Part shown: one piece after another, positions 8,937 to 42,443 of the stretch
How positions within the stretch are numbered: the first letter of the stretch is position 1
How the letters are laid out: each line of letters begins with the position of its first letter
Virus record (IMG/VR): IMGVR_UViG_3300009499_000114
Coordinates: 1-64,000 of that record
Length of the DNA stretch: 64,000 bases
From: a virus
Reading direction: 5' to 3' (one strand)
The notes under the pieces: generated by a model
What the model was told of the DNA's origin: nothing
Database searches by the model: none
What the model saw: the letters and a program-made list of their open reading frames with translations, nothing else
Made by a program: the position numbers and the translations under genes

Positions 8937-8939
8937 TCG

Positions 8940-26148: not shown

Positions 26149-26162
26149 AGAGGAGAACAACG

Positions 26163-27481: not shown

Positions 27482-27532
27482 ATACTGACCGGGCTTGGTG
27501 TGTTAGTTTCACGACGAACAAGAGGTGAGGGT

Positions 27533-28098: not shown

Positions 28099-28904
28099 CA
28101 TTCGTCACCTACTGCCACCCGCCGCATTTGCTCAGATTGCATGTGCCCGGTGTGCTGGAGGAGATAATCGCGTCGCACAAATATCCGTTTGACGAGATCG
28201 TCGTGGTACACCAAAACTGCCGGGGATTAGAATATTCGCCCGTTAAGGACCCGTCGGTGCGTGTTCTGGAGAGCGAAGATTACCATCCCGGCATCCTGGC
28301 TGAGTTCGGGATACCGGAGGAGGACGCAATTGCTGAGGAGCTTTCGGGCGGCGAGGACCAGCCGCGCCATTGGAAGTGGCAAACCATAAACCATCTCATC
28401 GGCCTCAAGGAGGCTACATCGGATTACGTCGTGTTCTCGGACTGCGATTGTCTCCTCATTAAATCATCGCCAAAGCGGTCGTGGGTTGAGGAAGGAATTG
28501 GCATCTTGCGGAAATATCCCAAGGTGCTCATCGTCTCGCCCAGTGACGGCGGGAGCATACGCGAGGACGTGATACCCGAGGCATTCTTGACGCGGAATGC
28601 AAGTCAGCAGCTATTCATCGCAGAGAGGGAGCGGTTCAGCAAGATTGACTTTAATGTGCCCTGGGATGGGAAGAAGAAAGCCCCGGGCGATCCGTTCGAG
28701 GCATTCTACGTGCTCATGGAAGGGCGGATTTGGCGATACCTTGATAAGTACAAACTTTGGCGGGCCTTCCTACCTAATACCTGGCGATACTGGCACTATG
28801 ACGGTGGGGCCTGGGCACCCCGGAATTGGATAGGCGAGGGAAGGCCGGTGTACAGTGGGACGAATGACGGATGGGTGCTTATAAAGGAACGCCGAGATGG
28901 GTAG
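28086..28904 (+). CDS. Glycosyltransferase-like (GT-A)
   Basis: FDEIVVVHQ; SDYVVFSDCDC (DxD); GGAGG RBS. Confidence 0.65.
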   Translation: MPTVAFVTYCHPPHLLRLHVPGVLEEIIASHKYPFDEIVVVHQNCRGLEYSPVKDPSVRVLESEDYHPGILAEFGIPEEDAIAEELSGGEDQPRHWKWQTINHLIGLKEATSDYVVFSDCDCLLIKSSPKRSWVEEGIGILRKYPKVLIVSPSDGGSIREDVIPEAFLTRNASQQLFIAERERFSKIDFNVPWDGKKKAPGDPFEAFYVLMEGRIWRYLDKYKLWRAFLPNTWRYWHYDGGAWAPRNWIGEGRPVYSGTNDGWVLIKERRDG

Positions 28905-29328
28905 CAATTCTATGCTTCATGTCAAGATCAATTTATTAGTTGCTGAGCATATCTTCGGCGCTGAACGGGGAGAATACGTGTATGGACCAAAAGAGGCCAT
29001 GCCCGAGGGCACGAGAGAAGAGCAGTGGGCTATACCTCCTGATCAAAGATTGTTCTTTGCCTGGTTTACTCCGCCAGGTGAACGCACTGAACCAATTTTA
29101 GGTTATTGCTACAGGAATTTTTCGGAAGAGATTTCGGAAGCATGGCAAGTAGAAGAACGTCTCACGAAAATGAAACTTCAAGATGAGTACATCAATCATT
29201 TACGTGGGATCGTCAATGCGAATGAATGGGTTGAAAATGAGGAATGGCTGATGGTGCACGCTTCACCGAAGGAACGTTGTCTAGCAGCACTAAGAGCAGT
29301 CGGTGTAGTAATTGAGGAACCGGCATGA
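28897..29328 (+). CDS. Phage ABA-sandwich-like protein
   Basis: INLLVAEHIFG...NFSEEISEAWQVEE...SPKERCLAALRAVG. Confidence 0.7.
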   Translation: MGSNSMLHVKINLLVAEHIFGAERGEYVYGPKEAMPEGTREEQWAIPPDQRLFFAWFTPPGERTEPILGYCYRNFSEEISEAWQVEERLTKMKLQDEYINHLRGIVNANEWVENEEWLMVHASPKERCLAALRAVGVVIEEPA

Positions 29329-30188
29329 ACTATCTACCTGTTTCAGCTTGCACTCTCACCCGCGATGCCTTTGCCGGGGGCTGGTGTCTGTTCGAGTCAA
29401 TGGCTTCGCTATTACCGTTCGTGGAAGAACTCGTGGTGATGGACCTGGGCTCAACCGACGGGACCCTAGAAGCTCTGCGCGAGATCGCGGAAGCCAACCC
29501 TAAGTTCAAGATCATTGCTCGGCCCGATTGGCCCAGAGTTGACGCGGGCGTCCTCTCGGATCTAATGAACGAACTCGTGGAGATTTGCCGCTATGAGCGT
29601 GTATTGTGCTTCGGGTCCGATGAAGTGTGGCACGAGGACCTATTGCTTCGCATGGAAGATCACTTTGAGCAGGGCAAGTTTAACCTGACTTTTTGGCGTC
29701 TCCAGTACCGGGATAATTTCCAAAGTATCAAGTGGCCTGCTCACACGGTGCACAGAGTTGGACTCAAGGGACAACTTGATTTTGTCGACGACGCAATGAT
29801 GACACGGAAGAGGCATGGTGCCGAGCTTTGTTCCCAGTACGGCGGTACAACTTATGATCACGACCCGCAAATGAATGATCCGGAGGGCGCCAAGTCTTTC
29901 GTTCATGACATGATCGTAGATGTGTCCAAGGCCGCCTTTCTTGACAATGCCAAGGTGAAAAGCGAACTGCTCGCCCCATTCTGGCACGAGTCGCCTAACG
30001 TTGAGGGCAAACCGACGGACGAGTGGCTGCACGAGGCGAGGGAGAACCCAGACTGGGCACAGACCGAATCGCCATTTAACCTGCCGAAACTTCTGCGCTG
30101 GCACGTCGGGAGGCCACGGTATGAGTTGCGACCCGAGTTGCTGGAGGCGCTGAAGCGAGACGAGACGAGGAAGCTGCTGGGAATATGA
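29325..30188 (+). CDS. Glycosyltransferase family 2
   Basis: ELVVMDLGSTDGT; GSDEVWHE; paralogous to 26675. Confidence 0.8.
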   Translation: MNYLPVSACTLTRDAFAGGWCLFESMASLLPFVEELVVMDLGSTDGTLEALREIAEANPKFKIIARPDWPRVDAGVLSDLMNELVEICRYERVLCFGSDEVWHEDLLLRMEDHFEQGKFNLTFWRLQYRDNFQSIKWPAHTVHRVGLKGQLDFVDDAMMTRKRHGAELCSQYGGTTYDHDPQMNDPEGAKSFVHDMIVDVSKAAFLDNAKVKSELLAPFWHESPNVEGKPTDEWLHEARENPDWAQTESPFNLPKLLRWHVGRPRYELRPELLEALKRDETRKLLGI

Positions 30189-30514
30189 CCTACATCTTGC
30201 GCTGGATGCTGGCTATCTTCGCTACCTACCGTCTGGCTAAATTGCTGGCCGAGGAGGATGGGCCGTTGTTCATCCTCAAGCGGATGCATGAGTTCACTGA
30301 TACCCGGCGAGCATATGAGCAATCTCGATATATAGACGACGGCCCCTGGGCCAGCCTGGACGAGGGGCTGCGCTGCCAGTACTGCGCCGGTGTCTGGGCG
30401 GCGGCCCTGTTTGCGGCCCTGGCGCGGCACCCCACACATTTAGGCGATGCGCTATTAGGCTGGTTGGGCCTGGCGGGGATGCAATCCTACCTATTCAAAA
30501 TCGGGGGCGAATGA
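30185..30514 (+). CDS. DUF1360-like membrane protein
   Basis: ATYRLAKLLAEEDGP...LRCQYCAGVW. Confidence 0.75.
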   Translation: MTYILRWMLAIFATYRLAKLLAEEDGPLFILKRMHEFTDTRRAYEQSRYIDDGPWASLDEGLRCQYCAGVWAAALFAALARHPTHLGDALLGWLGLAGMQSYLFKIGGE

Positions 30515-30551
30515 TGCCATGCACAAAGAAGCGAAAGAAGAAGAGGCGAAA

Positions 30552-31187
30552 GTGACGTCAGGGGACGACACCAGAATCCTGATCCTTGCGGGCGGTAAGG
30601 CAGGTCAGGATCACAAATCTTGGCAGGACAAAAGGGAACGGTTCTTGCTGCCTATCGCTGGCGAACCGTTGCTCCTGCGCACCACCCGATTATGCCGGCA
30701 ACTCGGATATCTGCCGACGATTGTGACCAGTATTCCCGCGGTTCAGGTTGCGGTGGGAAGATATTTCAATCCCGGCCCGAACAAATATGTCTGGGACACG
30801 ATACGCGGCACCCGCGAACTGTGGCGGAAGCGCACCGTATTCCTGGTGGGTGACGTGCTTTTCTTCACCGACACGCTTGAGCGGATCTTGACTTCACGGG
30901 AAACCTGCTCCTGGGAAGGAACCTGGGGAGGAGACACTTTCGGTGTGATCGCGGTCGTCTTCAACGACGAGAAGTGGGAGACCGTCTCAGGCTGGTGCGA
31001 ACTCGCCTGGCAGGAAGCTGAGCGAAGGGGCAACAGCGTCCTCCAGATTCTCAAGCAGTTGAAGTTGATCGAGAACGTGATATACGATGACGCGCGGGAC
31101 GACGTGTATGACTTTGACCTGGTCCGATATTGGGAAGAGTGCGTAACACGCTTTCCGTGGATACTGGGCAATGAACCTCAGGACTAA
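30552..31187 (+). CDS. Nucleotidyltransferase-like protein (NTP_transferase fold)
   Basis: ILILAGG...LLPIAGEPLL.RT...VFLVGDV...DFD. Confidence 0.65.
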   Translation: MTSGDDTRILILAGGKAGQDHKSWQDKRERFLLPIAGEPLLLRTTRLCRQLGYLPTIVTSIPAVQVAVGRYFNPGPNKYVWDTIRGTRELWRKRTVFLVGDVLFFTDTLERILTSRETCSWEGTWGGDTFGVIAVVFNDEKWETVSGWCELAWQEAERRGNSVLQILKQLKLIENVIYDDARDDVYDFDLVRYWEECVTRFPWILGNEPQD

Positions 31188-31590
31188 ACGGGTAGTGTTC
31201 ACCTCGGGCGTGTGGGACTTGCTGCACGAGGGGCATCGTAACCGCCTACGAGGGGCGAAGGCCCTGGGCGATACATTGGTGGTGGGGATAGTCACCGACG
31301 AGTTTGCAAGGTCGTATAAAGACCCGCCCGTCTGGGATTACGAACGGCGCTTTGAGGAAGTGGTCAGTTTGCCCTACGTGGACATCGCCGTTCCGCTTGG
31401 GGGGTTTACAGACTATTGGGCCATCGAAGAATATGGGGTAAGTGTACGGGTGATCGGCCCTGAGTACGGGCGGTTTACGGGCCAGGTAGAGGCTCGGGCT
31501 GAACTTGAACGGCGGGGCATCAAGTTTGTCGTCTTGCCCCGCACCCCGGGGATTTCGTCTACCCAATTACGAAAGAAAACGGAGGTTTGA
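31171..31590 (+). CDS. HxGH cytidylyltransferase (TagD/RfaE domain II-like)
   Basis: TSGVWDLLHEGH, LGDTLVVG..TDE, RTPGISST. Confidence 0.9.
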   Translation: MNLRTKRVVFTSGVWDLLHEGHRNRLRGAKALGDTLVVGIVTDEFARSYKDPPVWDYERRFEEVVSLPYVDIAVPLGGFTDYWAIEEYGVSVRVIGPEYGRFTGQVEARAELERRGIKFVVLPRTPGISSTQLRKKTEV

Positions 31591-32415
31591 ATGAAGAACT
31601 TGTTGATTGCGCTTATCCTGACCGTCCTGGCCGGGTGCGCCCCGCAAACTAGATCTTTGACCTACGTCATCATCCCGGCCGAGGAGGCCGTAAAATCGCA
31701 GGGGCAATTTGAGCCGTTCGTTGAATACCTCTCCGGCAGACTGGGGCGCGAGGTGGAGTTGATGGTCGTGTCCGACTACGCGGCCGTGGTCGAGGCCATG
31801 AAGTACGGTCACGCCGACATCGCCAGGTTTGGCCCCTTCAACTACGTCCTAGCTATGCAGGAGGCAGACATTGAAGTCCTCGTGGCAGGAATCAAAGAAA
31901 ATACCATGGGGCCGTCTTATCACGCGCTGATTATCGCCCGGGCCGACCGGGGCGTCACCGACTTGGAGGGGAAGTCCTTTGCATTCTCGGATGTGGGCTC
32001 GGCTTCGGGCTATCTGGCTCCCATGACGTATTTGCAGGAAAACGGGATACAGCCTGGCGAGATATTCTTCTCTGGCTCGCACAGTGCGTCCATCGAGGCT
32101 GTTAGGAATGGGACCGTGGACGTCGCGGCCCTAGCCGACAATCGCTACCTGGAGGCGCTAAAGGAAGGCGTCATCAATATAGGAGAGTTCGTCATCTTGT
32201 GGGAATCTAGCCCCATCCCGAATTCGCCCATCGCGGTCCAGAAATCAATGGACCCGAACCTGAAGGCGCAAATCTTGGGAGCATTCCTCGAAGCGCCAAG
32301 GGAGATTGTGGAGGGACTGGGCATCGGGGAAGTCGACTACGTTAGGATACAGGACAGTGACTATGACATCATCCGGCAGATGCAGGAGACGCAGGAACGC
32401 CTGGCTGGGGATTGA
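31591..32415 (+). CDS. phnD: Phosphate/phosphite/phosphonate ABC substrate-binding lipoprotein
   Basis: Lipobox LAGC; DYAAVVEAM..DIARFGPFNY; FSDVGSASGYLAP; GSH; LWESSPIPNSP. Confidence 0.9.
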   Translation: MKNLLIALILTVLAGCAPQTRSLTYVIIPAEEAVKSQGQFEPFVEYLSGRLGREVELMVVSDYAAVVEAMKYGHADIARFGPFNYVLAMQEADIEVLVAGIKENTMGPSYHALIIARADRGVTDLEGKSFAFSDVGSASGYLAPMTYLQENGIQPGEIFFSGSHSASIEAVRNGTVDVAALADNRYLEALKEGVINIGEFVILWESSPIPNSPIAVQKSMDPNLKAQILGAFLEAPREIVEGLGIGEVDYVRIQDSDYDIIRQMQETQERLAGD

Positions 32416-33157
32416 AGTCCTCGCCCTCGTAGTTCTTTTCTCGTGGTCAATCGGCGGCGTCGCGGACGACCTGTCGCGCATCCTTGTGGGGTTCCCGTTC
32501 ATCTGCGATTATCTTGCGGGGATGATCCCGCCCGACTGGTCAATCCTGCCGGAACTTTGGGGACCATGGGTTGAAACGTTAAGAATGGCAATCCTGAGCA
32601 TCATGTTGGCGTCTGTGATTGCGTTACCGCTCTCATTTCTGGCCGCGGTCAGTACGACATCTAACATCTTAACATACGCAATGGCACGGAGTCTCATCAA
32701 CTTATTTCGGGGCTTGCCAACCTTGTTACTGGCTATCTTGTTCGTGGCAATGGTTGGGCTTGGGCCTTTGGCCGGGGTATTTGCGCTGACCTGTCACTGC
32801 ATCGGGTCGTTGGGCAAGTATTTCTCGGAGGCCATCGAGGCCACGATACCCGTAGTAACCGACATTATGGAAGCCATGCAGGTAGATGGGGCCAGCAGGG
32901 GCTTGGCTCTTTGGTATGGATTGTTGCCCGAGATAGCGCCACTGTTCGCTGGCTACATCCTGTACTACTTTGAGTGGGCGTTAAGAGTTGGAACTGTGAT
33001 GGGTCTGGTCGGGGCCGGGGGCCTTGGATTATACCTGACAATGACGGTGCGCCTGTTCAAGCGGCAGCAGACGCTGGCGGTCGTGCTGGTCATCCTGGCT
33101 ACCGTGACGGCGGTGGACGTGCTGAGCTACGTTGTGCGCTCAAGGTGGATTGATTGA
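32363..33157 (+). CDS. phnE: Phosphonate ABC permease
   Basis: MIPPDW..ETLRMA; GLGPLAGVFAL; GKYFSEAIE; EAA-like EAMQVDGAS; MGLVGAGGLG. Confidence 0.9.
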   Translation: MTSSGRCRRRRNAWLGIEVLALVVLFSWSIGGVADDLSRILVGFPFICDYLAGMIPPDWSILPELWGPWVETLRMAILSIMLASVIALPLSFLAAVSTTSNILTYAMARSLINLFRGLPTLLLAILFVAMVGLGPLAGVFALTCHCIGSLGKYFSEAIEATIPVVTDIMEAMQVDGASRGLALWYGLLPEIAPLFAGYILYYFEWALRVGTVMGLVGAGGLGLYLTMTVRLFKRQQTLAVVLVILATVTAVDVLSYVVRSRWID

Positions 33158-33888
33158 TGAATGATTGCAGGATATTTGTACCCGTATCAAACCGCTTTCA
33201 ATGGGAACTTGGGCCGTTCTTTCATCTGTTCAACAAGTTTTGGGACGCAAACCTTCCAGTTACGGTACTGAGTTCGAGAAAGCCGAATTTCCAGTTTGAA
33301 AATCTGGAATACGTGCAAGTTCCGGGCCATCTTTTCCAGGAAGGCGATTGGTACTGGGGCTTGTTCGGGAACGGAATAAAGTGGTTTCTCGAGCAGATAC
33401 CGGAGTCAAATGTAATCATCATGATGGCTGATCACTGGCCGAAAGAGCCCGTGGACACCGAGACCATCGCTATCCTGCTGGAGTACGCTTCTGATCACAA
33501 AGATGTTTTCCGCATCTCCCTGTTTCCCCATCATGCATTATCGGTCCTGGAACGCACTGAAATATATAAGGGAGTTGAACTTTGGGAGTGCCCTGGCCAC
33601 CAGCCGGGATGTTTCCTCTTGATGAGCCTAGTACCCGCGATATGGAACAGGGATTTACTGATTGAGGCGGTAAAAGAGGACTGCGGCCCGTGGGAGTTTG
33701 AAGCTTTAGGCTCAAATATACTGAAGGCGAAATCCCCTGGCCTCAGGCACATCATTTCAATCCCGCAGGCTATCTATTATGCTCACGTCGCCCGCACCAG
33801 GGCGAAACAGATCCACTTGAGCGCCATGCCCGCGAATCTCGCCGAGGAAATTAAGAAATGGATTCCCAGCGACATCCAAGTAAAATAG
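33154..33888 (+). CDS. Putative glycosyltransferase-like protein
   Basis: FFHLFNKFW; VIIMMADHW..PVD; PAIWNRDLL..PWEFE. Confidence 0.55.
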   Translation: MMNDCRIFVPVSNRFQWELGPFFHLFNKFWDANLPVTVLSSRKPNFQFENLEYVQVPGHLFQEGDWYWGLFGNGIKWFLEQIPESNVIIMMADHWPKEPVDTETIAILLEYASDHKDVFRISLFPHHALSVLERTEIYKGVELWECPGHQPGCFLLMSLVPAIWNRDLLIEAVKEDCGPWEFEALGSNILKAKSPGLRHIISIPQAIYYAHVARTRAKQIHLSAMPANLAEEIKKWIPSDIQVK

Positions 33889-35099
33889 CCTGCCTGGTCT
33901 GTGGTGGCCCAGTCGAGCCATTCCTGGACCTGGGTAGGATGCCCCTCGCGAATGGATTTGTCCTGCCCGACGAGTTCAGTTCTGAATATTTCTACGATCT
34001 GAGAGTCGGGTTTTGTTCAGGCTGCATGATGGTTCAATTAACGGAAGTCGTGGAACCCGAAAGGATTTTCCACGACCGCTACCCATTCTATTCATCCAGT
34101 TCGGCAGGAATGGTAAAGCACTTCAGAAAGTTCGCAGGTGAAGTTCTTGAGTCCATTCAGGAAAAAGTAAATCCTTTCGTGGTTGAAATCGGCAGTAACG
34201 ATGGGACCCTGTTGCGTCATTTCGCTGATGCCGAAGTACGGCACCTTGGCATTGACCCCTCGACGAACGTCGTTCAGGTAGCAATCAACAGAGAGATAGA
34301 CACACTCTGTCGATTTTTCAATGAGGACACGGCGCGCCAGGTAGTAGCAGACCATGGTCAGGCTGACGTAATCCTGGCCGCGAACGTATTGCGGCACATG
34401 GCTGACCTGAATTCCAAGGTTCTGGGAATTAAATCGCTGCTCAATCCGGGGGGGCGTCTCATATTTGAAGAACCGTACCTGGGTGATATCATTGATATGG
34501 CGTCCTACGACCAGATATACGACGAGCACGTCTTCTATTTTTCTGTTATCTCAGTGTGTAATCTTTTCAAGCGGCACGGGATGGAAGTGATAGACATCAG
34601 GCATCAGAACGTGCATGGGGGGACCATGCGCTTCACAGTCGCCCACGAAAATGTTTACCAGCCCTCTTGGGTTGTGAGACTTCAACGAAGATACGAGAAA
34701 ATAACTGGATTGCACGAACTGGAAACTTATGAAACTTTTTCTTTCCGTACTGAACTTTCGCTTGCCAGACTCGAGGAACTATTAAGGGACCTGAAAAAGA
34801 AAGGGAATCGCGTCATCGGGTATGGCGCAAGCGCCAAGAGCACAATTGTGATCAATAGCTGTGGTATCACGTCCGACGTGATTGAATTCATCGCGGATAC
34901 CACGCCCGAGAAGCAGGGTAAATGCAGCCCCGGGAATCACATCCCTGTGCGGCCCCGAGAGGCGTTCACCTCGGATTACCCAGATTATGCGCTGCTGTTC
35001 ATCTGGAATCACTGCGAGGAAGTCTTGAAAAAAGAGCGAGATTTCAAGGCCGCCGGCGGCAAATGGATAGTGTACGTGCCAGAAGTGAGGATATTATAA
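33858..35099 (+). CDS. NDP-sugar C-methyltransferase (Zn domain + SAM domain + C-MT C-terminal domain)
   Basis: CLVC..FLDLGRMPLANGF..CSGC; EIGSNDG; YDEH.FYFS; HGG; GYGASAK; DTTPEKQGK. Confidence 0.9.
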   Translation: MDSQRHPSKIACLVCGGPVEPFLDLGRMPLANGFVLPDEFSSEYFYDLRVGFCSGCMMVQLTEVVEPERIFHDRYPFYSSSSAGMVKHFRKFAGEVLESIQEKVNPFVVEIGSNDGTLLRHFADAEVRHLGIDPSTNVVQVAINREIDTLCRFFNEDTARQVVADHGQADVILAANVLRHMADLNSKVLGIKSLLNPGGRLIFEEPYLGDIIDMASYDQIYDEHVFYFSVISVCNLFKRHGMEVIDIRHQNVHGGTMRFTVAHENVYQPSWVVRLQRRYEKITGLHELETYETFSFRTELSLARLEELLRDLKKKGNRVIGYGASAKSTIVINSCGITSDVIEFIADTTPEKQGKCSPGNHIPVRPREAFTSDYPDYALLFIWNHCEEVLKKERDFKAAGGKWIVYVPEVRIL

Positions 35100-35116
35100 T
35101 CGGGGATGTAAAATAC

Positions 35117-35690
35117 TTGACACCGGGTCTCATCGAGAACTTGCGACAGAAAGCCGTAGATTGCGAACTGCTCGGAGATGGTCACCTAGATGGTCTCTTT
35201 CTCAATGATACGAAGCGCATCTATTATCGATTCTTGTATTTCCTAGTCCAAGAATTGCAGCCCGCGATTTCCGTCGAACTCGGGATAGGCTGGGGAAGGC
35301 GGCACCGCTCACCTGGCTGCTGGTTGGCCGGAAGGCAAGGTGTTTGGAGTAGATGTCCAGGTGCACAGAGGTTGGCCGATATCTACCAAGCCGTATGACA
35401 AAATCACTCTCCTGTTAGGCAGGTCAGACGCGCCCGATATTCTAGCCCAGTTTGAAAATGACAGCGTCGATCTGTGTTTCGTGGACAGTGATCATGCTGG
35501 AGTATATGTGTTGCGGGAAGTTGAATTGTGGACGCCGAAAATGCGCGATGGCGGGATATTCGTCTTTGACGATTTGGATCTTGACGCGGGGATGAAAGAG
35601 GTGCTGCCGGCATTGCCTTTCAGGCAAAAGGGTAATTTGCCCGGCTTGCACTACATGGGATTCGGTTATGCAGTGGTGGAGAAAACTTAG
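35117..35690 (+). pseudogene. Methyltransf_24-type SAM methyltransferase split by a 1-nt frameshift
   Basis: YYRFLYFL..VELGIGWG in one frame continues as GGTAHLAAGWPEGKVFGVD..DLCFVDSDH..FDD in the next frame at ~35292-35297; paralog of 39420. Confidence 0.75.
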
Positions 35691-36994
35691 TGAAAACATT
35701 GGTCTTAAACCTTTGCGCTGGGCTGATGGGGGATGCGCATTATTCCTGGCGGCACGAGACACCCCGCCACTTGATGCAGATCGCGGGGGAACCCCAGGTC
35801 CGTCGGACATTGCGCCTCGTCCGTAGATTTGGTTTTGACGCCATCACGGTCACCAAGAGTCAGCGCATCAAGGATGTCGTGAAGAACATTTTTGAACCAG
35901 CGGAAGACTATCTGCTGTGGGACACGATGCTCAGCACCCGCGAGCTTTGGGACCAGGCAGACCGGGTCGTCTTTATTCTGGGTGACCAGGTCCTATATGA
36001 AGATTTTTTACGAGATTTATTTGGCTGGGAAGGGTCTTGTGTCTATGAAGCCGATCATGGCCCTCCTGCTGCCATCTTTGCACGGGAAGATTACGACAAA
36101 TGTGAAAAGGGGTTGAGGCATCTCAAAGAAACCCAGAAACTCTACCAAGATTGCATGCAAAATGTTGAAGGCTTTATAGTAATAGTACCTAGATACAAAA
36201 AAAGGAGTTTGCCCGATCTGGATAACACGAGAATATGGGACGCCTGGGTTGCAAAAGAGCCCTGGGTTCTGGAAAGGCCAAAGCCCGTGCTGGTCTACCT
36301 CGCTGCGGGAAGGGCCTCGCGTCTCAGTCCCACGTCTGACGCCTGCCCCAAGGCGATGGTTGAGGTAGGGGGCAAACCCCTGGTAGGGCGGGTGCTGGAT
36401 GAGTTCCTGAAATACGGTCTGGGACTCATCGTGGTCTCGGTGGGATATAAAGGCGACCAGATCGAGTCCTACCTGGGCTCCGCGAGAGGAGGCGTACCTA
36501 TCAAGTATGTCAATTGCCCAGACTACGAGAACGTCGGATCCGGGACTTCCTTCCGTCTCGCGAAGGATTATTTGGTAGAGAGAGACTGCTTCCTGGCCGA
36601 AGGCGACTTCTTGCTGTCCCCCGACCTGGTGCGGCGGCTCGCTATTTCGCCGTACCAGGACTGCGGAATCACCGACCCGTGCCTGCCAGAAGCCAGGGAC
36701 CGGGGCGTATTCGCTTTCGGACAAGGGGGGCTGATCGAACGCATCGTGGCCCCCTATGACTTGGACTACGACCCCGCTCTACAGCCCGACTCCCTGGGTG
36801 AAATGCCCCACGTCTTCAAGTTTTCCCGGGGGGCGGTAGAAATCCTGCTAGAATTCATTGACGAGCAACTGGTCGATTCGGTCAACGCTGTAATGCAGAG
36901 GCTTCCGGTGTACTCAATTCCCGCCGGCGAATCGGCGTGGGCGCACATTAATACAGAGAAGGGCCTTGATTATGCACAGAAAATCGTTGCATAA
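35690..36994 (+). CDS. Two-domain nucleotidyltransferase; C-terminal LicC/PntC-like cytidylyltransferase
   Basis: N-domain paralogous to 30552 (HLMQIAGEPQVRRT..VFILGD); C-domain LAAGRASRL..PKAMVEVGGKPL..VGYK..Y..N...EGD..WAHINT. Confidence 0.8.
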   Translation: MKTLVLNLCAGLMGDAHYSWRHETPRHLMQIAGEPQVRRTLRLVRRFGFDAITVTKSQRIKDVVKNIFEPAEDYLLWDTMLSTRELWDQADRVVFILGDQVLYEDFLRDLFGWEGSCVYEADHGPPAAIFAREDYDKCEKGLRHLKETQKLYQDCMQNVEGFIVIVPRYKKRSLPDLDNTRIWDAWVAKEPWVLERPKPVLVYLAAGRASRLSPTSDACPKAMVEVGGKPLVGRVLDEFLKYGLGLIVVSVGYKGDQIESYLGSARGGVPIKYVNCPDYENVGSGTSFRLAKDYLVERDCFLAEGDFLLSPDLVRRLAISPYQDCGITDPCLPEARDRGVFAFGQGGLIERIVAPYDLDYDPALQPDSLGEMPHVFKFSRGAVEILLEFIDEQLVDSVNAVMQRLPVYSIPAGESAWAHINTEKGLDYAQKIVA

Positions 36995-37016
36995 GGCTAT
37001 TCAAAAGGAGAGTGAT

Positions 37017-37892
37017 GTGAAAGGTCGGTATTTGATTTTGGTAAGTATCCTGATCGTGGTTCTGTTGTCTGGCCTGGGTTTTCTGGCCTATCGTTCATTA
37101 TGTGTCCCCGAAAGGGAAACTATAACGTTCGTATTCCATCCAGGGGAATCGATGGAACTGGGGGTCTTGAAGGAAAACTTTGGGCCTATCTTTGTAGCAT
37201 TGTCCGCAAAATTGGATATGGACTACGATGTTAAACTCGGGTCGAGTTACGCGGCGACGATGGAATCCCTGCGCAACGGCACGGCGGACGTTTCCCGCAT
37301 CGGATCATCCATGTATGTACTGACCAGGGACGAGATTGACTTTAGATTAGTCGCCTGGGATATCATGGACGGCGAGGACCATTACCACGCCGTACTACTG
37401 GGCAGACCCGGCATCTGGGAGGAGCCGTTCACGTTTGAACAACTGAGAGGCAAGACGGTCGCCTTCGTGGATCCGAGTTCTACTTCTGGATACATTGCTC
37501 CTATGACCGCGATGCTAGACGCGGGGGTCGCGCTTGAGGACCTGGGCAAGTATTCATTCGGGACGACGCATCCAGTTGCAATTGAGGCCATGCTCAATGG
37601 TGTAGCAGACGTGGCTTGCACCGGGGACGCCATGATACCCGAGATTGAGGACTCTGGGTCACTTGAGGGAGAAGATTTCATCGTGCTGTGGGAATCGCCC
37701 CCATTGGTGATGGATGTTTGGGTCATCGGTCCAGGCGTTGGAACTGAAAAAGCTGATAGAATTGCCGAGGCACTGCTTAATTTACCCGATGAAGTATTTG
37801 AGGGTTGCTGGATCGACGGTTTCTCGCCAGTGGATTTGAGCGCCTATGAATTCAGTGAGAAGATGCTTCGGGCGGTGGGTGAAATTGAGTGA
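37017..37892 (+). CDS. phnD: Second phosphate/phosphite/phosphonate ABC substrate-binding protein
   Basis: N-terminal anchor; SSYAATMESLRNG; AFVDPSSTSGYIAP; GTTH; LWESPP. Confidence 0.88.
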   Translation: MKGRYLILVSILIVVLLSGLGFLAYRSLCVPERETITFVFHPGESMELGVLKENFGPIFVALSAKLDMDYDVKLGSSYAATMESLRNGTADVSRIGSSMYVLTRDEIDFRLVAWDIMDGEDHYHAVLLGRPGIWEEPFTFEQLRGKTVAFVDPSSTSGYIAPMTAMLDAGVALEDLGKYSFGTTHPVAIEAMLNGVADVACTGDAMIPEIEDSGSLEGEDFIVLWESPPLVMDVWVIGPGVGTEKADRIAEALLNLPDEVFEGCWIDGFSPVDLSAYEFSEKMLRAVGEIE

Positions 37893-38650
37893 GATTCGTT
37901 CTGGTAATCCTGGTCGTCCTATCACTAGCACTATGCGCCCTGGGCGGCCTGGCGGAAGGGATAGTGAGAGCGGGCGGATATTTGGCCCGACTCTGGCCGC
38001 CCGATCTGCGGTATTTCCCGAAGCTCGTCCCCGCCATCGTGGATACTCTGCTCATGTCGCTCGCGGGTACGACCCTGGCCATGCTCTCGGCAATCCCACT
38101 GTCGTATTTCGGGAGCAGGGACCTGGTGGGCAACCCGGTCCTGTACGCTACGACCCGCTTTGTGATGTCCGTGATGCGGGCTACGCCCGTCCTCGTCCTG
38201 GGCATCATGTTCGTCGCCGCGCTGGGGATGGGCATGACGGCCGGGATACTGGGCCTCTGGTTTCACTGCACCGGGGCACTGGGCAAGTTCATGTCAGAAT
38301 CCCTGGACGCAGCGGACAAGTCAGTACGAGAGGCGGCGATCATGGACGGGGCATCGCGGTGGGAAACTTACGCCTACGTGCTGCTGCCGATGCAGGTGAA
38401 CGCTTACCTGTCCTTCTACCTGTACTACATAGAATCGAACTTCCGTTCCGCCGTCGTCCTAGGAGTCGTCGGGGCGGGTGGGATCGGGTTGGAACTTATC
38501 ACAGTGATCGGCATGTTTAAGTATCACCGCATCGGGCTCATCGTCCTGCTGGTCATCGCGGTCGCGCTCGCCCTGGACTTCCTGAGCCGGTGGGTCAGGG
38601 GAAGATTCCTTAAGGAATACGGAGATGTCAGCACAACATCAGCTCTATGA
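37889..38650 (+). CDS. phnE: Second phosphonate ABC permease
   Basis: LWPPD; GKFMSESLD; EAAIMDGAS; VLGVVGAGGIG. Confidence 0.9.
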   Translation: MRFVLVILVVLSLALCALGGLAEGIVRAGGYLARLWPPDLRYFPKLVPAIVDTLLMSLAGTTLAMLSAIPLSYFGSRDLVGNPVLYATTRFVMSVMRATPVLVLGIMFVAALGMGMTAGILGLWFHCTGALGKFMSESLDAADKSVREAAIMDGASRWETYAYVLLPMQVNAYLSFYLYYIESNFRSAVVLGVVGAGGIGLELITVIGMFKYHRIGLIVLLVIAVALALDFLSRWVRGRFLKEYGDVSTTSAL

Positions 38651-39413
38651 ATCGAAACTGGCCTGTCCTGTGTGTCACGGGAAGTTCTTGGATGGGCTGC
38701 GAGACGCGGTCCAGTGTGAGGAGTGCTCGCTAATCTATCCCGTGATGAATGGCACCTACAACCTTGTGCCACCGGGGATCCTGAACGATTCGCGCTTCCA
38801 GTTCGAGCTAGAGCGCTATGACCAGATCGCCGTAGCCGGCCTGAGGGCATACCCGGGGTACTTGGCGACCCGCCCAAAGGAACGAGCGGAACTTATAGCA
38901 GACCTGCTGAGAGCGCATCAGGTAAAGGAATTTGTAGAAGTCGGCCCAGGTTTCGGATCTCTGCTAGATAGAACGAGGGGCTTGAAACGGACGGCCGTCG
39001 AGCTGAGTACTGCATTCCTAACGCACCTTGCGGTGCGCCTGGGTGAACCCGATATGTGCCTTGTAAAAGGCGTCGCTGAATATCTGCCCCTGGCATCTGG
39101 CACGGTTCCTTGCCTAGTGATGGACGGTACCTTTCAGAGCATCGTAGACCGGGAACGGTTTTTGTACGAGGTGTCACGGATCTGTGCTCCCGGCGCAATG
39201 TTCGTCTTCACAGTTGCATATGGGCACAACTACCCACGTCGCCCGCAGAATGGGTTCAATGTGAACCGGCCCGACGAGCTTGAAACACTGCGTCATTTCT
39301 TGGAGGAATTGGGTTTTGATATGGAATTCCGGTACCGCGACCTGGGCGCGGGGAAATGGGTACAGATCAAGGATGAAGGCGATTATCTTTACATGGTTGG
39401 AAGGAAATCCTGA
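38625..39413 (+). CDS. Trm112-like Zn knuckle + class I SAM methyltransferase
   Basis: LACPVC..CEEC..YPV.NG; EVGPGFG; AEYLPL; EVSRICAPG. Confidence 0.8.
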   Translation: MSAQHQLYESKLACPVCHGKFLDGLRDAVQCEECSLIYPVMNGTYNLVPPGILNDSRFQFELERYDQIAVAGLRAYPGYLATRPKERAELIADLLRAHQVKEFVEVGPGFGSLLDRTRGLKRTAVELSTAFLTHLAVRLGEPDMCLVKGVAEYLPLASGTVPCLVMDGTFQSIVDRERFLYEVSRICAPGAMFVFTVAYGHNYPRRPQNGFNVNRPDELETLRHFLEELGFDMEFRYRDLGAGKWVQIKDEGDYLYMVGRKS

Positions 39414-39419
39414 ACGGAG

Positions 39420-39986
39420 ATGAATGAATCCTGGTTTGAGCAACTGGCCGACCGGGCCTACGCATTAAGGCCCTACCCAGATCCGAGGTTTCCACCGTCG
39501 GCGTACTATCGTTTTCTGCGGTTGTTGGCTGAAGAGATGCGCCCAAATCTATCAGTTGAACTGGGAGTTTGCGGTGCCGGGGGCAGTCTACACCTGTGCC
39601 TGGGGTGGCCGGAGGGAATCGTAGTCGGGGTAGACGCAGTTCCTGAAGATGCAGGGGAATGGGTAGAACGCAAGGCCTACGTCAAGGGACTCTGCCCGAA
39701 CTTCCGGTTCTGGTATGGCGATTCTTCGGAATCCGCTTCCGAGATACATGAGCAGTACGGAAACGTTGACATCTTGTTTATTGATACGACCCATACTTAC
39801 GAACAGACACAGCGGGAGTTTGCGGCATGGCAGCCCTACCTGTCCGACCGTGCAGTAGTCTGTCTGGACGATTTGGTTTTCCCGGGCATGAATCGGATTT
39901 GGGCTGAGTTGCCCGGGAAGAAAGTTTTCCTTGATATACTAAACGGCAAAGAAAATTTCGGTGTGGTCTACGATTTGAAAAAATGA
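39420..39986 (+). CDS. Methyltransf_24-type SAM (O-)methyltransferase
   Basis: VELGVCGAGGS; GVD; DILFIDTTHTYE; LDD. Confidence 0.82.
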   Translation: MNESWFEQLADRAYALRPYPDPRFPPSAYYRFLRLLAEEMRPNLSVELGVCGAGGSLHLCLGWPEGIVVGVDAVPEDAGEWVERKAYVKGLCPNFRFWYGDSSESASEIHEQYGNVDILFIDTTHTYEQTQREFAAWQPYLSDRAVVCLDDLVFPGMNRIWAELPGKKVFLDILNGKENFGVVYDLKK

Positions 39987-40002
39987 AAGGGAAAGATTCG
40001 TA

Positions 40003-41763
40003 ATGGACATCAGCATCGTCTCGGGAACTTACAATCGCCTTCCGTTTCTCAAACGCATGGTCGAGACCGCCCGGAGTTCACTCAAAATTCTCTCTGGCCT
40101 GACCCATGAGTTCGTATTGGTTGACGGGGGTAGCCAGGATGGGACGCAGGACTGGTGCCGGGCGCAATCCGATGTACGGCTGATTGAACACGAAAAACTT
40201 TTTGGCGCGGTCAAGGCGTTCAACGACGGGGCTTTCGCGGCGCACGGTGACTATGTGGTCCTGGCGAACGACGACGTGGAGTTCCTGGGCAACACGCTGG
40301 CCCTGGGATGGATATATATGCAGGATCATCCCGACTGCGGGATAGGCTGCTTCTACCAGGACCGCAACAAACGAGACTGGCACGTTGAAAGCATGCCGGT
40401 CGTACGCGACGGCCGGCAGGAGCACGCGCCCTACGGCCAGGTGTGCATCGTGCCCAAATGGCTAGGCGACCGCGTGGGATGGTGGGGCGATTATCTGCAT
40501 ACCTATGGTGGAGACAATGAACTTAGTTCACAGGTATATGCATTAGGTTTCAAGGTCTCACCAGTCCCGGATACGAAAGTTCACGACAACGAACCCGATG
40601 ACGATCTGCGGCGCATCAATAATATTACGGGCGGGAAGGACCCGCGGGCAGTGGCGGGCCACCACCCGGATTCCTGGAAGTGGGGCAAGAGGTGGCGCAA
40701 CGAGGCCGAGAACTTGGTCGGTCCGGTCATCCGGGATGCGCCTGCCGTGGAATTTCCTTTCTCGGTCGTGAAGGAACGGGTACTCTACCTTCCGGTGTAT
40801 GAGCAAGGATGGCCTGTTCAAAAAGAACAGAAACGGGGCCTGCGCGAGGCATTGGGACGGGTGACGTTGGTTTCCGAGTACGACTATCTGACGCGAGATG
40901 CGGAAATAGGCGGGGCGGCGATGTTGGCTGAACTTCAGCGATTATGCCAGGAATCACAGCCCACGCTGGTGCTGACCCAGATCCACAACTCGGACGTCAT
41001 CAGCCCCGACGGAATTGGGACGTTGCGCAGGGCAGTTCCCAATGCCCGCTTCGTCAACTGGAATGGCGACTTCTGGCCCGACAATCTGCTGAGCGAAGCG
41101 GGGCTGCGGCTGGCGCGGTCGTTTGACTTGCAGACGACCGTCAACCGCGACGCGCTGGAGAAGTACCGTGAGCAAGGCATCCGGGCCGAGTACTGGCAGA
41201 TCGGGTGGGAGCCCGACGGCGTGGGGCACGAGCCGGAGGAACGCTTCGACCTGGTATTCCTAGCGAGCGGGTATTCCCCTGCGCGGCACAAGCTGGTCGG
41301 GTTCCTGCGCAACCTGGCCGACGTCAAGTTCGGCCTGTGGGGTCCGGGCTGGCCCGACGGCTGGGCCAGGGGCCAGAACGTCTACGACTTCGTTGAGGCT
41401 TGCAGGTGCTACCGGGGCGCCAAAATCAGCCTGGGCGACAGCCAGTGGCCCGATTCTGGCTTCGTCAGCAACCGCGTCTTCCAGGCGCTGGCGGCGGGGG
41501 GCTCGGCCCTGGCATACCAACGGTTCAGGGGCATGGAGGAATTGGGCCTGGTGGATGGCGAAACGGTCATCGTCTGGGAAGACCATGGCAGCCTGGAGGC
41601 AAAGGTCAGATACTTTCTGGCGCACGAGGTCGAGCGGCAGCGCATCGCACGGGCGGGCGAGGCCCTGGCGCTGAACCGTCACTCGTTCGACAACCGGGTG
41701 CAGGAACTGTTCGGGTGGGTCGGCGCGAGGGAGCAGCCCCAAGAGGAGAACTGGCGGTGGTGA
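40003..41763 (+). CDS. Bifunctional glycosyltransferase (GT2 + CgeB/Glyco_trans_1_2-like)
   Basis: [22 protein letters not shown]; C-half [24 protein letters not shown]. Confidence 0.88.
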
Positions 41764-42443
41764 TGGAGTTGGATACTATCGTTGTGGGTGACTGCCTAGA
41801 CGTGATGGCGGGGATGCCGGACGGGTGCGTGGATCTGGTGGTGACTGATCCATTGTTTGTATTACCTGTCCATACTGCTGCCTCGCGTAAGCGAATAAGA
41901 AACCTGGGAGATTTCTCACCATCTAGTTGTCAGATGTCTATAGTTTTTGAACAATTAGAACGCATTTGTAAATCATCAAGCAGATTATTCTTTTTCTGCG
42001 ACGACAAATTCTATCCTATATTATTTATAATGAGCTATGAGCAGTGGTATCTACAACTCTTGGTGTGGGATAAAGGACGTATAGGTTTTGGCACTGATTT
42101 CAGGAAACAGTTTGAAATGATTCTTTATCTTCGGGGAGAAGATGCACCGTTATTAGAGCGTAAGAATAATAAATCTGATGTCTTGAAATGTACGCCGGTT
42201 CCATCGGGGGAGCGATTGGTAGAAGCACAAAAACCCGAAAATCTGATTCTGGATTTGCTCGATGGTATTCCCGGTGATCTAATCTTTGATCCCTTTGTTG
42301 GTTCCGGTACTACCGCCGTTGCAGCCCTCAAGCTGGGCCGTCATTTCTATGGCTGCGACATCAATCCCGACTACGTGAGGCTGGCGAACGAGCGGATCAA
42401 GAAAACGCGCCTAGAGATGGCGCAGATGGAGATGGAACTATGA
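41763..42443 (+). CDS. DNA methyltransferase (N6/N4, beta class) with variant catalytic motif
   Basis: [13 protein letters not shown] (DPPY position); QKP; [10 protein letters not shown]; start refined from 41400. Confidence 0.8.

What the first reader, a model, noticed from the sequence alone, without database searches (positions are those of the whole stretch)
31591..38650. ABC transporters without an ATPase: phnD+phnE twice, no phnC
Seen: no ABC ATPase (Walker A + LSGGQ) anywhere in the window, although both permeases keep the EAA-like coupling loop. Known: cellular phn transport operons normally include phnC. Inference: the phage swaps in specificity and channel subunits that use the host ATPase. 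The two PhnEs could also heterodimerise, or alter a surface receptor for superinfection exclusion.
Basis: partly seen in the sequence, partly recalled or inferred. Interest (0 to 1): 0.7.

Follow-up and report, generated by a model that had tools for sequence, protein, structure and literature searches.

The report
Phage phosphonate-type importer lacking its ATPase
This phage carries two intact binding-protein-plus-channel pairs of a phosphonate-type ABC importer but no motor ATPase, and the same ATPase-less cassette, always joined to a cytidylyltransferase inside glycosylation gene islands, recurs in dozens of uncultured viral contigs, which suggests that phages borrow a host motor to import a phosphorus head group that they activate and attach to sugars rather than use as food.

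Summary
The window is the first 64 kb of a 78.6-kb virus contig. It has two intact phnD-phnE pairs and no ABC ATPase anywhere on the contig.

The lack of an ATPase is not a gap in the assembly:
- A complete relative (108.9 kb, terminal repeats) has phnDE and no ABC ATPase.
- Of 18 metagenomic loci of the same PhnD clade with room on both sides, none has phnC, while 14 of 14 cellular-type loci do.
- The phosph(on)ate-binding residues of PhnD and the ATPase-coupling (EAA) loop of PhnE are conserved, so an ATPase supplied in trans by the host is the most likely motor. This is inferred, not shown.

A PF01467 cytidylyltransferase sits directly upstream of phnD in 26 of 28 loci. LicD phosphotransferases, a second nucleotidyltransferase-fold protein and TagF-like enzymes are often linked, always inside glycosyltransferase islands, and no PEP mutase is present. 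The best reading is "import, CMP-activate, attach to glycan", with the substrate unknown.

Virome surveys already list viral phnD/phnE as phosphorus-acquisition genes. The cassette and this logic appear undescribed. Other first-stage notes of this scan proposed the same reading for this same DNA.

The parts
30519..31187 (+). NTL: divergent nucleotidyltransferase-fold protein (module 1). Homologous to the N-terminal half of the 35690-36994 protein.
   Evidence: Weak PF12804 match. 28% identity to residues 3-194 of the 434-aa protein. Homologues follow PhnE in at least 14 metagenome loci. AF2 model has pLDDT 83.7, and its Foldseek top hits are RmlA, MobA, LicC and PntC.
31171..31590 (+). CT: small PF01467 cytidylyltransferase directly upstream of phnD1.
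   Evidence: PF01467 4e-12. Best PDB hits are ethanolamine-phosphate cytidylyltransferase 4e-20, TagD 1e-15 and the Fom1 CyTase domain 7e-10. Homologues lie directly upstream of PhnD in 26 of 28 loci with room.
31591..32415 (+). PhnD1: lipoprotein substrate-binding protein of the PhnT family.
   Evidence: PF12974 6e-60 and TIGR01098 above cut-off. Lipobox LAGC at residues 13-16. Head-binding residues are conserved (Y, Y, S-A-S, H), with tail positions N and S. Nearest PDB relatives are PtxB and HtxB at 1e-34, but the Tyr cap is replaced by Ser.
32363..33157 (+). PhnE1 permease (ORF opens at 32306; likely start ATG 32363, preceded by AGGA).
   Evidence: TIGR01097 233.8 bits, above the 216.7 cut-off, covering profile positions 2-251 of 252. 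EAA loop MEAMQVDGAS...LLP is present. Start codon read from the sequence.
33154..33888 (+). 244-aa GT-A-fold protein, a candidate transferase. It is not a degenerate PhnC.
   Evidence: No Pfam or NCBIfam hit. BLASTP against the PhnC of L001 gives E=58. AF2 model has pLDDT 83.6, and Foldseek hits GT-A glycosyltransferases. Homologues lie near the cassette in L034 and L038.
33858..35099 (+). C-methyltransferase (zinc-binding domain plus class I methyltransferase plus Methyltransf_14).
   Evidence: PF08484 9e-48 and PF08421 2e-20.
35690..36994 (+). Fusion of NTL with an NTP_transf_3 (LicC/PntC-like) nucleotidyltransferase, directly upstream of phnD2 (module 2).
   Evidence: PF12804 1e-17 at residues 202-320. 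Best PDB hit is LicC at 4e-9; PntC 6pd1 scores 2e-4. The N-terminal half is homologous to 30519-31187.
37017..37892 (+). PhnD2: membrane-anchored substrate-binding protein (ORF opens at 36966; likely start GTG 37017, with AAGGAG 6 nt upstream).
   Evidence: PF12974 2e-43. Head residues Y, Y, S-T-S, H are conserved, with tail positions A and D. It has its own family of about 10 metagenomic proteins at 50-90% identity, followed by a gap to cellular proteins at 33% or less. Start codon read from the sequence.
37889..38650 (+). PhnE2 permease. Its start overlaps the phnD2 stop by 4 nt.
   Evidence: TIGR01097 217.1 bits, above the 216.7 cut-off. EAA loop REAAIMDGAS...LLP is present.
38625..39413 (+). 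Class I methyltransferase with an N-terminal Trm112-like zinc ribbon, at the end of module 2.
   Evidence: PF08241 8e-8.
24068..44804 (+). Surrounding glycosylation island: several GT2 and GT1 glycosyltransferases, methyltransferases and an NAD-dependent epimerase.
   Evidence: Pfam hits.

Best explanation
The two phnD-phnE pairs are working binding-protein and channel halves of type I ABC importers of the phosphonate (PhnT, TC 3.A.1.9) family. The phage lineage shed the phnC ATPase gene.

Proposed mechanism:
1. In the infected cell each PhnE dimer docks a host nucleotide-binding protein through its conserved EAA coupling helix. This would be the host's own PhnC or a promiscuous NBD.
2. The membrane-tethered PhnD delivers an organophosphonate or organophosphate head group.
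3. The imported compound is not burnt for phosphorus. The adjacent nucleotidyltransferases convert it to a CMP/CDP-activated form (PF01467 CT plus NTL in module 1, the NTL-LicC/PntC-like fusion in module 2).
4. Transferases of the surrounding glycosylation island attach it to a glycan. In relatives these are LicD or TagF-like enzymes; here the candidates are the GT-A-fold protein and the glycosyltransferases. The glycan is on the virion or on the infected cell's envelope.

This amounts to a Lic/Pnt-type "activate and attach" pathway in which import replaces choline kinase or PEP mutase.

Shown: gene content, the absence of an ATPase, conserved binding and coupling residues, and conserved synteny.

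Inferred: use of a host ATPase, cytidylylation of the imported compound, glycan attachment, and the identity of the substrate. The pocket lacks the PtxB tyrosine cap, the E/D pair of the E. coli 2-AEP binder and the R/T pair of the glycerol-phosphate binder GpxB.
For: 1. No ATPase.
- No ABC ATPase on the 78.6-kb contig.
- None in the complete, terminally repeated 108.9-kb relative G003, which has phnDE.
- None in 18 of 18 viral-type metagenome loci with room on both sides, against 14 of 14 cellular-type loci with phnC (Fisher p=2e-9, not corrected for phylogeny).
- All of about 15 nearest cellular genome loci are phnC-phnD-phnE.

2. The proteins look functional.
- Both PhnE exceed the TIGR01097 cut-off over their full length.
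- The EAA-loop Gly/Ala is invariant in 38 ATPase-less PhnE, and the loop is as conserved as the rest of the protein (0.63 against 0.62).
- The PhnD head-binding residues (E. coli Y47, Y93, S127, T128, S129, H157) are conserved in D1, D2 and nearly all of the family.
- D1 has a lipobox.

3. Functional linkage.
- CT lies directly upstream of PhnD in 26 of 28 loci with room and in three otherwise unrelated phage genomes: the window, L002 and L003.
- Tandem LicD-CT-PhnD units share a single PhnE in L070, L071, L076, L078 and L112, and their PhnDs have different pocket residues.
- L070 carries a LicD-CT fusion protein.
- NTL follows PhnE in at least 14 loci.
- L001 has PhnD-PhnC-PhnE-NTP_transf_3-TagF-like.
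- L002 places LicD-CT-PhnD-PhnE between the major capsid and head-tail genes.

4. No PEP mutase in any of the five virus records, so the head group is not made de novo.

5. Precedents.
- PF12804 and PF01467 are the two nucleotidyltransferase families fused to Ppm in cellular phosphonate tailoring, at 33% and 23.6% (PMC6697681).
- Hybrid interspecies type I importers with exchanged NBDs are functional (PMC7658222).
Against: - No experiment supports any step, and the host is unknown, so there is no proof that it has a compatible PhnC.
- NBD sharing is documented for sugar (CUT1) importers, not for the PhnT family.
- The window itself has no LicD or TagF-like gene by Pfam, so the attaching enzyme here is only guessed.
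- PF01467 and PF12804 enzymes also activate ordinary sugar or alcohol phosphates made inside the cell. Linkage alone does not prove that they act on the imported compound.
- The contig is 89% complete.
- Whether most metagenome loci are viral is inferred from four IMG/VR records and from the lack of matches at 40% identity or above in 185,579 species genomes. That scan was based on peptide patterns and can miss members.
Confidence: 0.55

Rival explanations
1. Ordinary phosphorus-scavenging auxiliary metabolic genes. The phage boosts host uptake of phosphonate or phosphite for nucleotide synthesis, as cyanophage pstS does for phosphate, using the host PhnC and host catabolic enzymes.
For: Virome surveys list viral phnD and phnE as phosphorus-acquisition AMGs (PMC11310336, PMC10987575). 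PhnD1's nearest solved relatives are the phosphite and hypophosphite binders PtxB and HtxB.
Against: - The near-obligate linkage to a cytidylyltransferase (26 of 28), LicD and NTL, and the placement inside glycosyltransferase islands, are not expected for nutrition.
- No phosphonate or phosphite catabolic gene was seen among the genes annotated next to the cassettes.
- The PtxB tyrosine cap is lost.
- Tandem PhnDs each have their own CT and LicD.
Confidence: 0.17
2. The ATPase is simply not on the part we see. phnC lies in the missing roughly 11% of this phage genome.
For: CheckV completeness is 89% and the record is linear without terminal repeats. One relative (L001/G001) does carry phnC between phnD and phnE, and so does L082.
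Against: - In every locus that has phnC, it lies next to phnD and phnE. Here both pairs are tightly packed with no room for it.
- The complete relative G003 lacks any ABC ATPase.
- 0 of 18 informative loci of the clade have it.
Confidence: 0.05
3. The pairs do not import anything. They could be decaying relics, or they could act at the membrane in another way, such as PhnD as a sensor or decoy, exclusion of superinfecting phage, or a PhnE1/PhnE2 heterodimer with a new role.
For: No type I ABC importer is known to work without an NBD. Substrate-binding proteins can also serve in signalling (PMC8050422, listed).
Against: - Both genes are conserved over a deep clade (42-68% identity) with invariant ligand-head and EAA residues.
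- There are no frameshifts or stops in any of the four genes.
- In tandem cassettes several PhnDs share one PhnE, as expected for binding proteins feeding one translocator.
Confidence: 0.1
4. PhnE works as an ATPase-independent facilitator or secondary carrier fed by PhnD.
For: The ATPase has been lost across a whole viral clade.
Against: - There is no precedent for type I ABC transmembrane domains working this way.
- The ATPase-coupling EAA loop stays conserved, which would not be needed.
- A basal member keeps phnC.
Confidence: 0.04

Closest known systems
PhnCDE phosphonate ABC importer (E. coli phnCDE; PhnT family, TC 3.A.1.9, which includes PtxABC, HtxBCDE and GpxABCD)
   Same: The binding-protein fold and the phosph(on)ate head-binding residues are the same. 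The PhnE permease scores above the TIGR01097 cut-off and has an EAA loop. The binding-protein and permease genes are adjacent.
   Different: No phnC. The cellular relatives found here always have it next door. The tail-pocket residues match none of the characterised specificities, which are E177/D205 for 2-AEP, the Tyr cap for phosphite or methylphosphonate, and R223/T247 for glycerol phosphate. The binding proteins are lipid- or membrane-anchored, and the genes sit in a virus.
Lic pathway (LicB transporter, LicA kinase, LicC cytidylyltransferase, LicD transferase) for phosphocholine decoration of surface glycans
   Same: The logic is the same: import a head-group precursor, cytidylylate it, and transfer it to a glycan. 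LicC-like (PF12804) and LicD (PF04991) enzymes are linked to the cassette in this phage and its relatives.
   Different: The importer is an ABC binding protein plus permease that recognises an already phosphorylated or phosphonylated compound, so no kinase is needed. The most constant partner is a PF01467 cytidylyltransferase. The window has no LicD.
Phosphonyl tailoring (Pnt) pathway: Ppm plus the PntC cytidylyltransferase plus LicD-like transferases (Rice et al. 2019, PMC6697681); also the Fom1 CyTase domain in fosfomycin biosynthesis
   Same: The same two nucleotidyltransferase families (PF12804, PF01467) are coupled to the source of the phosphonate. The neighbourhoods contain LicD-like enzymes and glycosyltransferases. 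B12-radical SAM enzymes lie nearby in two relatives, as Fom3 follows Fom1 (this last comparison is from my own knowledge).
   Different: No PEP mutase in any of the five virus records, so import would replace synthesis. It is not shown that the substrate is a phosphonate.
Cyanophage pstS and other viral phosphorus-acquisition AMGs
   Same: A virus carries the extracytoplasmic part of a host ABC importer and relies on host parts for the rest.
   Different: Here the permease is also viral, two systems are present, and the conserved partners are activation and transfer enzymes rather than Pho-regulon genes.
ABC importers served by a shared, separately encoded ATPase (MsmX, MsiK, MsmK; PMC7658222)
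   Same: The operons encode only the binding protein and transmembrane domains, and the NBD is supplied in trans. Interspecies hybrids can work.
   Different: Those are CUT1 sugar importers within one cell. Here the NBD would come from another genome (the host), and the family is PhnT.
Virion glycosylation in actinobacteriophages (glycosyltransferase genes next to capsid genes; recalled from my own knowledge of Freeman et al. 2023 and from titles listed, none of which were read)
   Same: A glycosylation island sits inside or beside the structural gene block (L002: capsid, LicD-CT-PhnD-PhnE, head-tail genes).
   Different: Those phages have two to four glycosyltransferases and no importer or head-group activation genes.

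Membership tests
PhnCDE-type (PhnT, TC 3.A.1.9) ABC importer | Periplasmic or anchored binding protein of the phosphonate-bd family | tested here: met
   PF12974 scores 203 bits for D1 and 148.9 bits for D2, against a cut-off of 27. On TIGR01098, D1 scores 192.9, above the 112.05 cut-off, and D2 scores 104.3, just below it.
PhnCDE-type (PhnT, TC 3.A.1.9) ABC importer | PhnE permease with an EAA coupling loop | tested here: met
   TIGR01097 scores 233.8 and 217.1 bits against a cut-off of 216.7. The EAA loop is present, and its Gly is invariant in 38 family members.
PhnCDE-type (PhnT, TC 3.A.1.9) ABC importer | Cognate ATPase PhnC encoded with the system | tested here: not met
   PF00005 gives 0 matches in the 78.6-kb contig. 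There is no ORF with both Walker A and LSGGQ. The complete relative G003 also lacks it.
PhnCDE-type (PhnT, TC 3.A.1.9) ABC importer | Residues that bind the phosph(on)ate head (E. coli Y47, Y93, S127, T128, S129, H157) | tested here: met
   D1 has Y, Y, S, A, S, H and D2 has Y, Y, S, T, S, H. The canonical pattern is kept in 29 of 47 viral-type sequences, and the rest carry conservative changes.
PhnCDE-type (PhnT, TC 3.A.1.9) ABC importer | Demonstrated ATP-dependent uptake of a phosphonate | not testable with these tools
   Needs uptake assays.
Lic/Pnt-type head-group activation and attachment pathway | Cytidylyltransferase of PF01467 or PF12804 linked to the source of the head group | tested here: met
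   CT at 31171-31590 is PF01467, and residues 202-320 of the 35690-36994 protein are PF12804. CT lies upstream of PhnD in 26 of 28 loci.
Lic/Pnt-type head-group activation and attachment pathway | LicD-type or TagF-type phosphotransferase | tested here: inconclusive
   PF04991 and PF04464 are absent from this contig. They are present next to the cassette in L002, L062, L069, L070, L071, L076, L078, L084, L112 and L001. A GT-A-fold protein follows PhnE1 here.
Lic/Pnt-type head-group activation and attachment pathway | Endogenous source of the head group (choline kinase LicA or PEP mutase Ppm) | tested here: not met
   PF13714 gives 0 of 5 virus records. No kinase is seen in the window's modules. 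The importer stands in this position.
Lic/Pnt-type head-group activation and attachment pathway | CMP/CDP-activated intermediate and a modified glycan shown chemically | not testable with these tools
   Needs enzyme assays, 31P NMR or mass spectrometry.
Importers with a shared or trans-encoded NBD (MsmX/MsiK type) | Binding protein and transmembrane domains encoded without an NBD, with the NBD encoded elsewhere and shown to energise them | tested here: inconclusive
   The first half is met. The NBD donor, presumably the host, is unknown and untested. The known examples are CUT1 systems, not PhnT.

The most novel reading that the evidence does not exclude
A widespread, purely viral cassette (cytidylyltransferase-PhnD-PhnE, with or without LicD and NTL) builds a chimeric phage-host ABC importer on a borrowed host ATPase. 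It takes organophosphonates or related head groups from the environment, CMP-activates them and installs them on virion or cell-surface glycans. Tandem LicD-CT-PhnD units act as exchangeable specificity modules around one shared channel. This would be the first viral phosphono- or phospho-glycan decoration pathway, and the first importer split between a virus and its host.
Probability: 0.4. Interest if true: 0.85.

Novelty: new variant of a known kind. Interest (0 to 1): 0.72.

Why it matters
Viral phnD and phnE are currently counted in virome surveys as phosphorus-acquisition genes. If they instead feed a glycan-decoration pathway, those biogeochemical inferences would need revising.

It would also show three things:
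- A virus can complete an ABC importer with a host motor protein.
- Phages may carry phosphonate- or phosphoester-decorated glycans, which bears on host recognition, immune or grazer evasion, and the origin of phosphonate esters in dissolved organic matter.
- There is a compact toolkit, made of matched binding-protein, cytidylyltransferase and transferase units, for installing unusual head groups on sugars.

The cassette is small and can be tested directly in E. coli.

Tried and rejected
- **The 244-aa ORF after phnE1 (33154-33888) as a degenerate PhnC.** Rejected. It has no Pfam or NCBIfam hit, BLASTP against a viral PhnC gives E=58, and the model has a GT-A fold.
- **Recent duplication of the two pairs.** Rejected. 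D1 and D2 are 31% identical and E1 and E2 36%. D1/E1 are closer to other phages' genes, at 42-61%.
- **Context of the best PhnD homologues through the look-up of encoding contigs.** I used pattern scans of the viral, genome and metagenome collections instead.
- **PhnD2-family loci in viral contigs.** None were found.
- **Host identification.** There are no tRNAs. The large terminase has no match among isolated phages and matches only an unclassified MAG contig at 54%. The host remains unknown.
- **PhnE in isolated phage records.** Only five weak hits (32% identity or less) turned up, in unannotated records.
- **Structural proteins of the window.** Pfam and PHROGs found nothing for the portal and capsid candidates. 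The placement of the island between head and tail genes therefore rests on the terminase, the tape measure and the clearer layout in L002.
- **PhnD tree.** The careful maximum-likelihood search did not finish in time, so only the quick tree is reported.

Full report
**What is there**

The window is the first 64 kb of a 78,578-bp IMG/VR virus record. The record is linear and CheckV rates it 89% complete. It is a tailed phage, with a large terminase at 600-2036 and a tape-measure protein at 51277-53748.

At the stated coordinates there are two binding-protein and permease pairs.
- **PhnD1** is at 31591-32415. It scores 6e-60 on PF12974 and 192.9 bits on TIGR01098, above the 112 cut-off.
- **PhnE1** is the ORF 32306-33157. 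It scores 233.8 bits on TIGR01097, above the 216.7 cut-off.
- **PhnD2** is the ORF 36966-37892 and scores 2e-43 on PF12974.
- **PhnE2** is at 37889-38650 and scores 217.1 bits on TIGR01097.

Reading the DNA refines two starts. PhnE1 most likely starts at ATG 32363, after an AGGA. PhnD2 most likely starts at GTG 37017, six bases after AAGGAG. That start gives 291 aa, the length of its closest database relative.

PhnD1 begins with a signal peptide and a lipobox (LAGC). PhnD2 has an N-terminal membrane anchor. The two pairs are old paralogues or separate acquisitions, not a recent duplication. D1 and D2 are 31% identical and E1 and E2 are 36% identical.

**Is the ATPase really missing?**

Yes, as far as sequence can tell.
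- A six-frame search of the whole contig with PF00005 found nothing, while the same search hit 14 of 14 control genomes.
- No ORF combines a Walker A motif with an ABC signature.
- The 14.6 kb beyond the window encode an HNH-helicase, DNA methylases, an actin-like protein, DUF5131 and an AAA protein, and no ABC ATPase.
- The 244-aa ORF right after phnE1 has the size of an NBD but is not one. It has no family hit, BLASTP against a viral PhnC gives E=58, and its model has a GT-A fold.

**Is this an accident of one incomplete contig?**

No. Pattern scans with the PhnD1 family found four related virus records.
- **G003** is 108,853 bp, has direct terminal repeats and is rated 100% complete. It has phnD and phnE but no ABC_tran match anywhere.
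- **G002** and **G004** also have phnDE without phnC.
- **G001** (L001) is the exception, with the order phnD-phnC-phnE.

A scan of metagenome contigs returned 80 loci. I annotated them by local tblastn.
- **Viral-type clade** (PhnD at least 42% identical to D1): 55 loci, 41 with phnE on the contig and one with phnC (L082). Of the 18 with room on both sides, none has phnC.
- **Cellular-type clade** (40% identity or less): 14 of 14 loci with room have phnC.
- All of about 15 nearest loci from species genomes, at 34-38% identity, are phnC-phnD-phnE.

A quick maximum-likelihood tree separates the two groups with SH-aLRT support of 97. One side is the phnC-linked cellular group. The other is a 57-row group holding D1, the D2 family on a long branch, and all the cassette loci. 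In that second group only L001/L085 is phnC-linked. The careful search did not finish, and the root is at the midpoint only.

**Are the proteins still functional?**

- Both permeases match the PhnE equivalog over its whole length.
- The EAA loop is intact.
- Across 38 ATPase-less PhnE sequences the EAA-loop Gly-Ala is invariant, and the loop is as conserved as the rest of the protein, at 0.63 against 0.62.
- I mapped the E. coli PhnD ligand residues onto the alignment. All eight recalled residues were confirmed in the K-12 sequence at the mature-protein offset. The head-binding residues Y47, Y93, S127, T128, S129 and H157 are kept in D1, D2 and nearly all the family.

The tail positions differ from every characterised specificity summarised in PMC12718374. 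D1 has N/S and D2 has A/D where E. coli PhnD has E177/D205 for 2-AEP and GpxB has R223/T247 for glycerol phosphate. The tyrosine cap of PtxB is Ser in D1. The pocket therefore binds a phosph(on)ate head with a tail larger than H or CH3. The ligand is unknown. The tail pair is also much more varied in the viral clade than in the cellular one.

**What is it linked to?**

This is the main new point. The pairs sit inside a roughly 20-kb island of GT2 and GT1 glycosyltransferases, methyltransferases and an epimerase. Each pair is preceded by nucleotidyltransferases.
- **Module 1** is NTL (30519-31187), then the PF01467 cytidylyltransferase CT (31171-31590), then PhnD1, PhnE1 and the GT-A protein.
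- **Module 2** is an NTL-PF12804 fusion (35690-36994), then PhnD2, PhnE2 and a methyltransferase.

The enzymes have informative relatives. CT's best solved relatives are ethanolamine-phosphate cytidylyltransferase, TagD and the Fom1 CyTase domain. The PF12804 half is closest to LicC. NTL models confidently as a nucleotidyltransferase fold.

The linkage holds across relatives.
- The genomes G000, G002 and G003 share almost nothing else, yet all three carry CT-PhnD-PhnE.
- In the metagenome loci CT lies directly upstream of a PhnD in 26 of 28 cases with room.
- NTL follows PhnE in at least 14 loci.
- LicD genes precede CT in nine loci: L062, L069, L070, L071, L076, L078, L084 and L112, and L002.
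- In L070, L071, L076, L078 and L112 there are tandem (LicD-)CT-PhnD units. In L070, which extends far enough to show it, they are followed by a single PhnE.
- The two PhnDs of L070 differ in pocket residues, and one L070 protein is a LicD-CT fusion.
- L001 has PhnD-PhnC-PhnE followed by an NTP_transf_3 enzyme and a TagF-like glycerophosphotransferase.
- In L002 the module LicD-CT-PhnD-PhnE lies between the major capsid gene and the head-tail genes.
- L079 places the cassette among GT1, a GHMP kinase, a DegT aminotransferase and a GT2-methyltransferase.
- B12-radical SAM enzymes sit nearby in L003 and L070. The L070 enzyme's best NCBIfam match is the PhpK P-methyltransferase family, far below its cut-off.
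- None of the five virus records has a PEP mutase.

**How it most likely works**

The constant association of a phosph(on)ate-head binding protein with a cytidylyltransferase, and often a LicD or TagF-type phosphotransferase, reproduces the logic of two known pathways. One is the Lic pathway. The other is the phosphonyl-tailoring pathway, in which PF12804 and PF01467 enzymes are the usual partners of PEP mutase (PMC6697681). Here an importer stands where the kinase or mutase would be.

I therefore read the system as import, then CMP/CDP activation, then attachment to a glycan. The tandem units suggest that binding protein, cytidylyltransferase and transferase form matched specificity sets around a generic channel.

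The energy must come from an NBD not encoded by the phage. The conserved coupling loop argues that one is still used. The host PhnC or a promiscuous host NBD is the obvious candidate. Functional interspecies hybrids of type I importers are documented for MsmX-type systems (PMC7658222).

None of these steps has been shown experimentally. The target of the decoration, virion or infected-cell envelope, is open.

**Alternatives**

- **Plain phosphorus scavenging.** This is how virome papers file viral phnD and phnE (PMC11310336, PMC10987575). It does not explain the synteny.
- **A phnC in the missing 11% of the genome.** This is unlikely given the complete relative and the fact that phnC is adjacent to phnD and phnE wherever it exists.
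- **Decay or a non-transport role.** This is disfavoured by the conservation.
- **ATPase-independent transport.** This has no precedent, and the conserved EAA loop would then be unnecessary.

**Known or new**

Viral phnD and phnE as such are already catalogued, and the groundwater survey lists no viral phnC. I did not find three points in the searched literature:
- ATPase loss as a clade-wide feature.
- The conserved CT-PhnD-PhnE cassette, with or without LicD and NTL.
- Its placement in glycosylation islands.

Other first-stage notes of this scan on the same DNA proposed the same "scavenge, activate, attach" reading. I had reached it independently, and I tested it here by comparative synteny. 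I rate it a new variant of known kinds: an ABC importer with a trans-supplied NBD, and a Lic/Pnt-type decoration pathway.

**Limits**

- The host is unknown.
- The collection scans depend on peptide patterns and can miss members.
- The counts of loci are not corrected for phylogeny.
- The synteny of the D2 family outside this phage could not be examined.

Noticed in passing
window 35222-35690: A Methyltransf_24 paralogue appears to be split by a frameshift near 35262-35287. Residues 29-50 of the intact paralogue (39420-39986) match one frame and residues 42-165 match another. The cause could be a pseudogene, a sequencing error or programmed frameshifting.
   Followed up: partly
L070:455-1726 and L003:4527-5990: B12-binding radical SAM enzymes lie beside the CT-PhnD cassette in two relatives. 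The best NCBIfam match for the L070 enzyme is the PhpK family of P-methyltransferases (6e-40, far below cut-off). This hints at methylation of a cytidylylated phosphonate or phosphinate, as in the Fom1/Fom3 logic.
   Followed up: partly
L003:6371-8808: Two sulfatase-family proteins (PF00884 plus SGSH_C) lie directly upstream of the cytidylyltransferases and phnDE in the complete 108.9-kb phage genome. This family also includes phosphoethanolamine and glycerophosphate transferases.
   Followed up: no
window 32306-33157 (PhnE1), L002:7642-8403, L003:10692-11546: PhnE of the CT-PhnD-PhnE cassettes shares a 3-residue insertion just before the EAA coupling helix. The insertion is absent from PhnE2, from the phnC-linked L001 PhnE and from cellular PhnE. 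The viral PhnE also lack the long N-terminal extension and a 13-residue insert seen in the cellular relatives.
   Followed up: partly
contig 74705-75694 (-), L114:10705-11694: A phage-encoded actin-like protein (ALP_N 1e-19 plus MreB-like_C 5e-15).
   Followed up: no
window 58950-59975 (-), L114:596-1315 (-), L114:7723-9231 (-), window 44801-46822 (+): There are at least three N6/N4 DNA methylase genes and a further PHROG DNA methyltransferase on one 78.6-kb phage contig. An HNH-helicase fusion (L114:4188-6167) is also present.
   Followed up: no
window 7546-10998: A second, separate block of NDP-sugar tailoring genes lies between the terminase and the head genes. It contains an RmlC-like epimerase, a hexapeptide acyltransferase and a DegT-type aminotransferase.
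   Followed up: partly
window 22373-23359: An HNH homing-endonuclease-like gene (phrog_314, 2e-27) is inserted just upstream of the glycosylation island.
   Followed up: no
L079:5802-6863: A GHMP kinase lies two genes upstream of CT-PhnD-PhnE in an 80.8-kb metagenome contig. Its best match is D-glycero-D-manno-heptose 7-phosphate kinase HddA, at 1e-49. Heptose activation is therefore an alternative job for some PF01467 enzymes in these islands.
   Followed up: no
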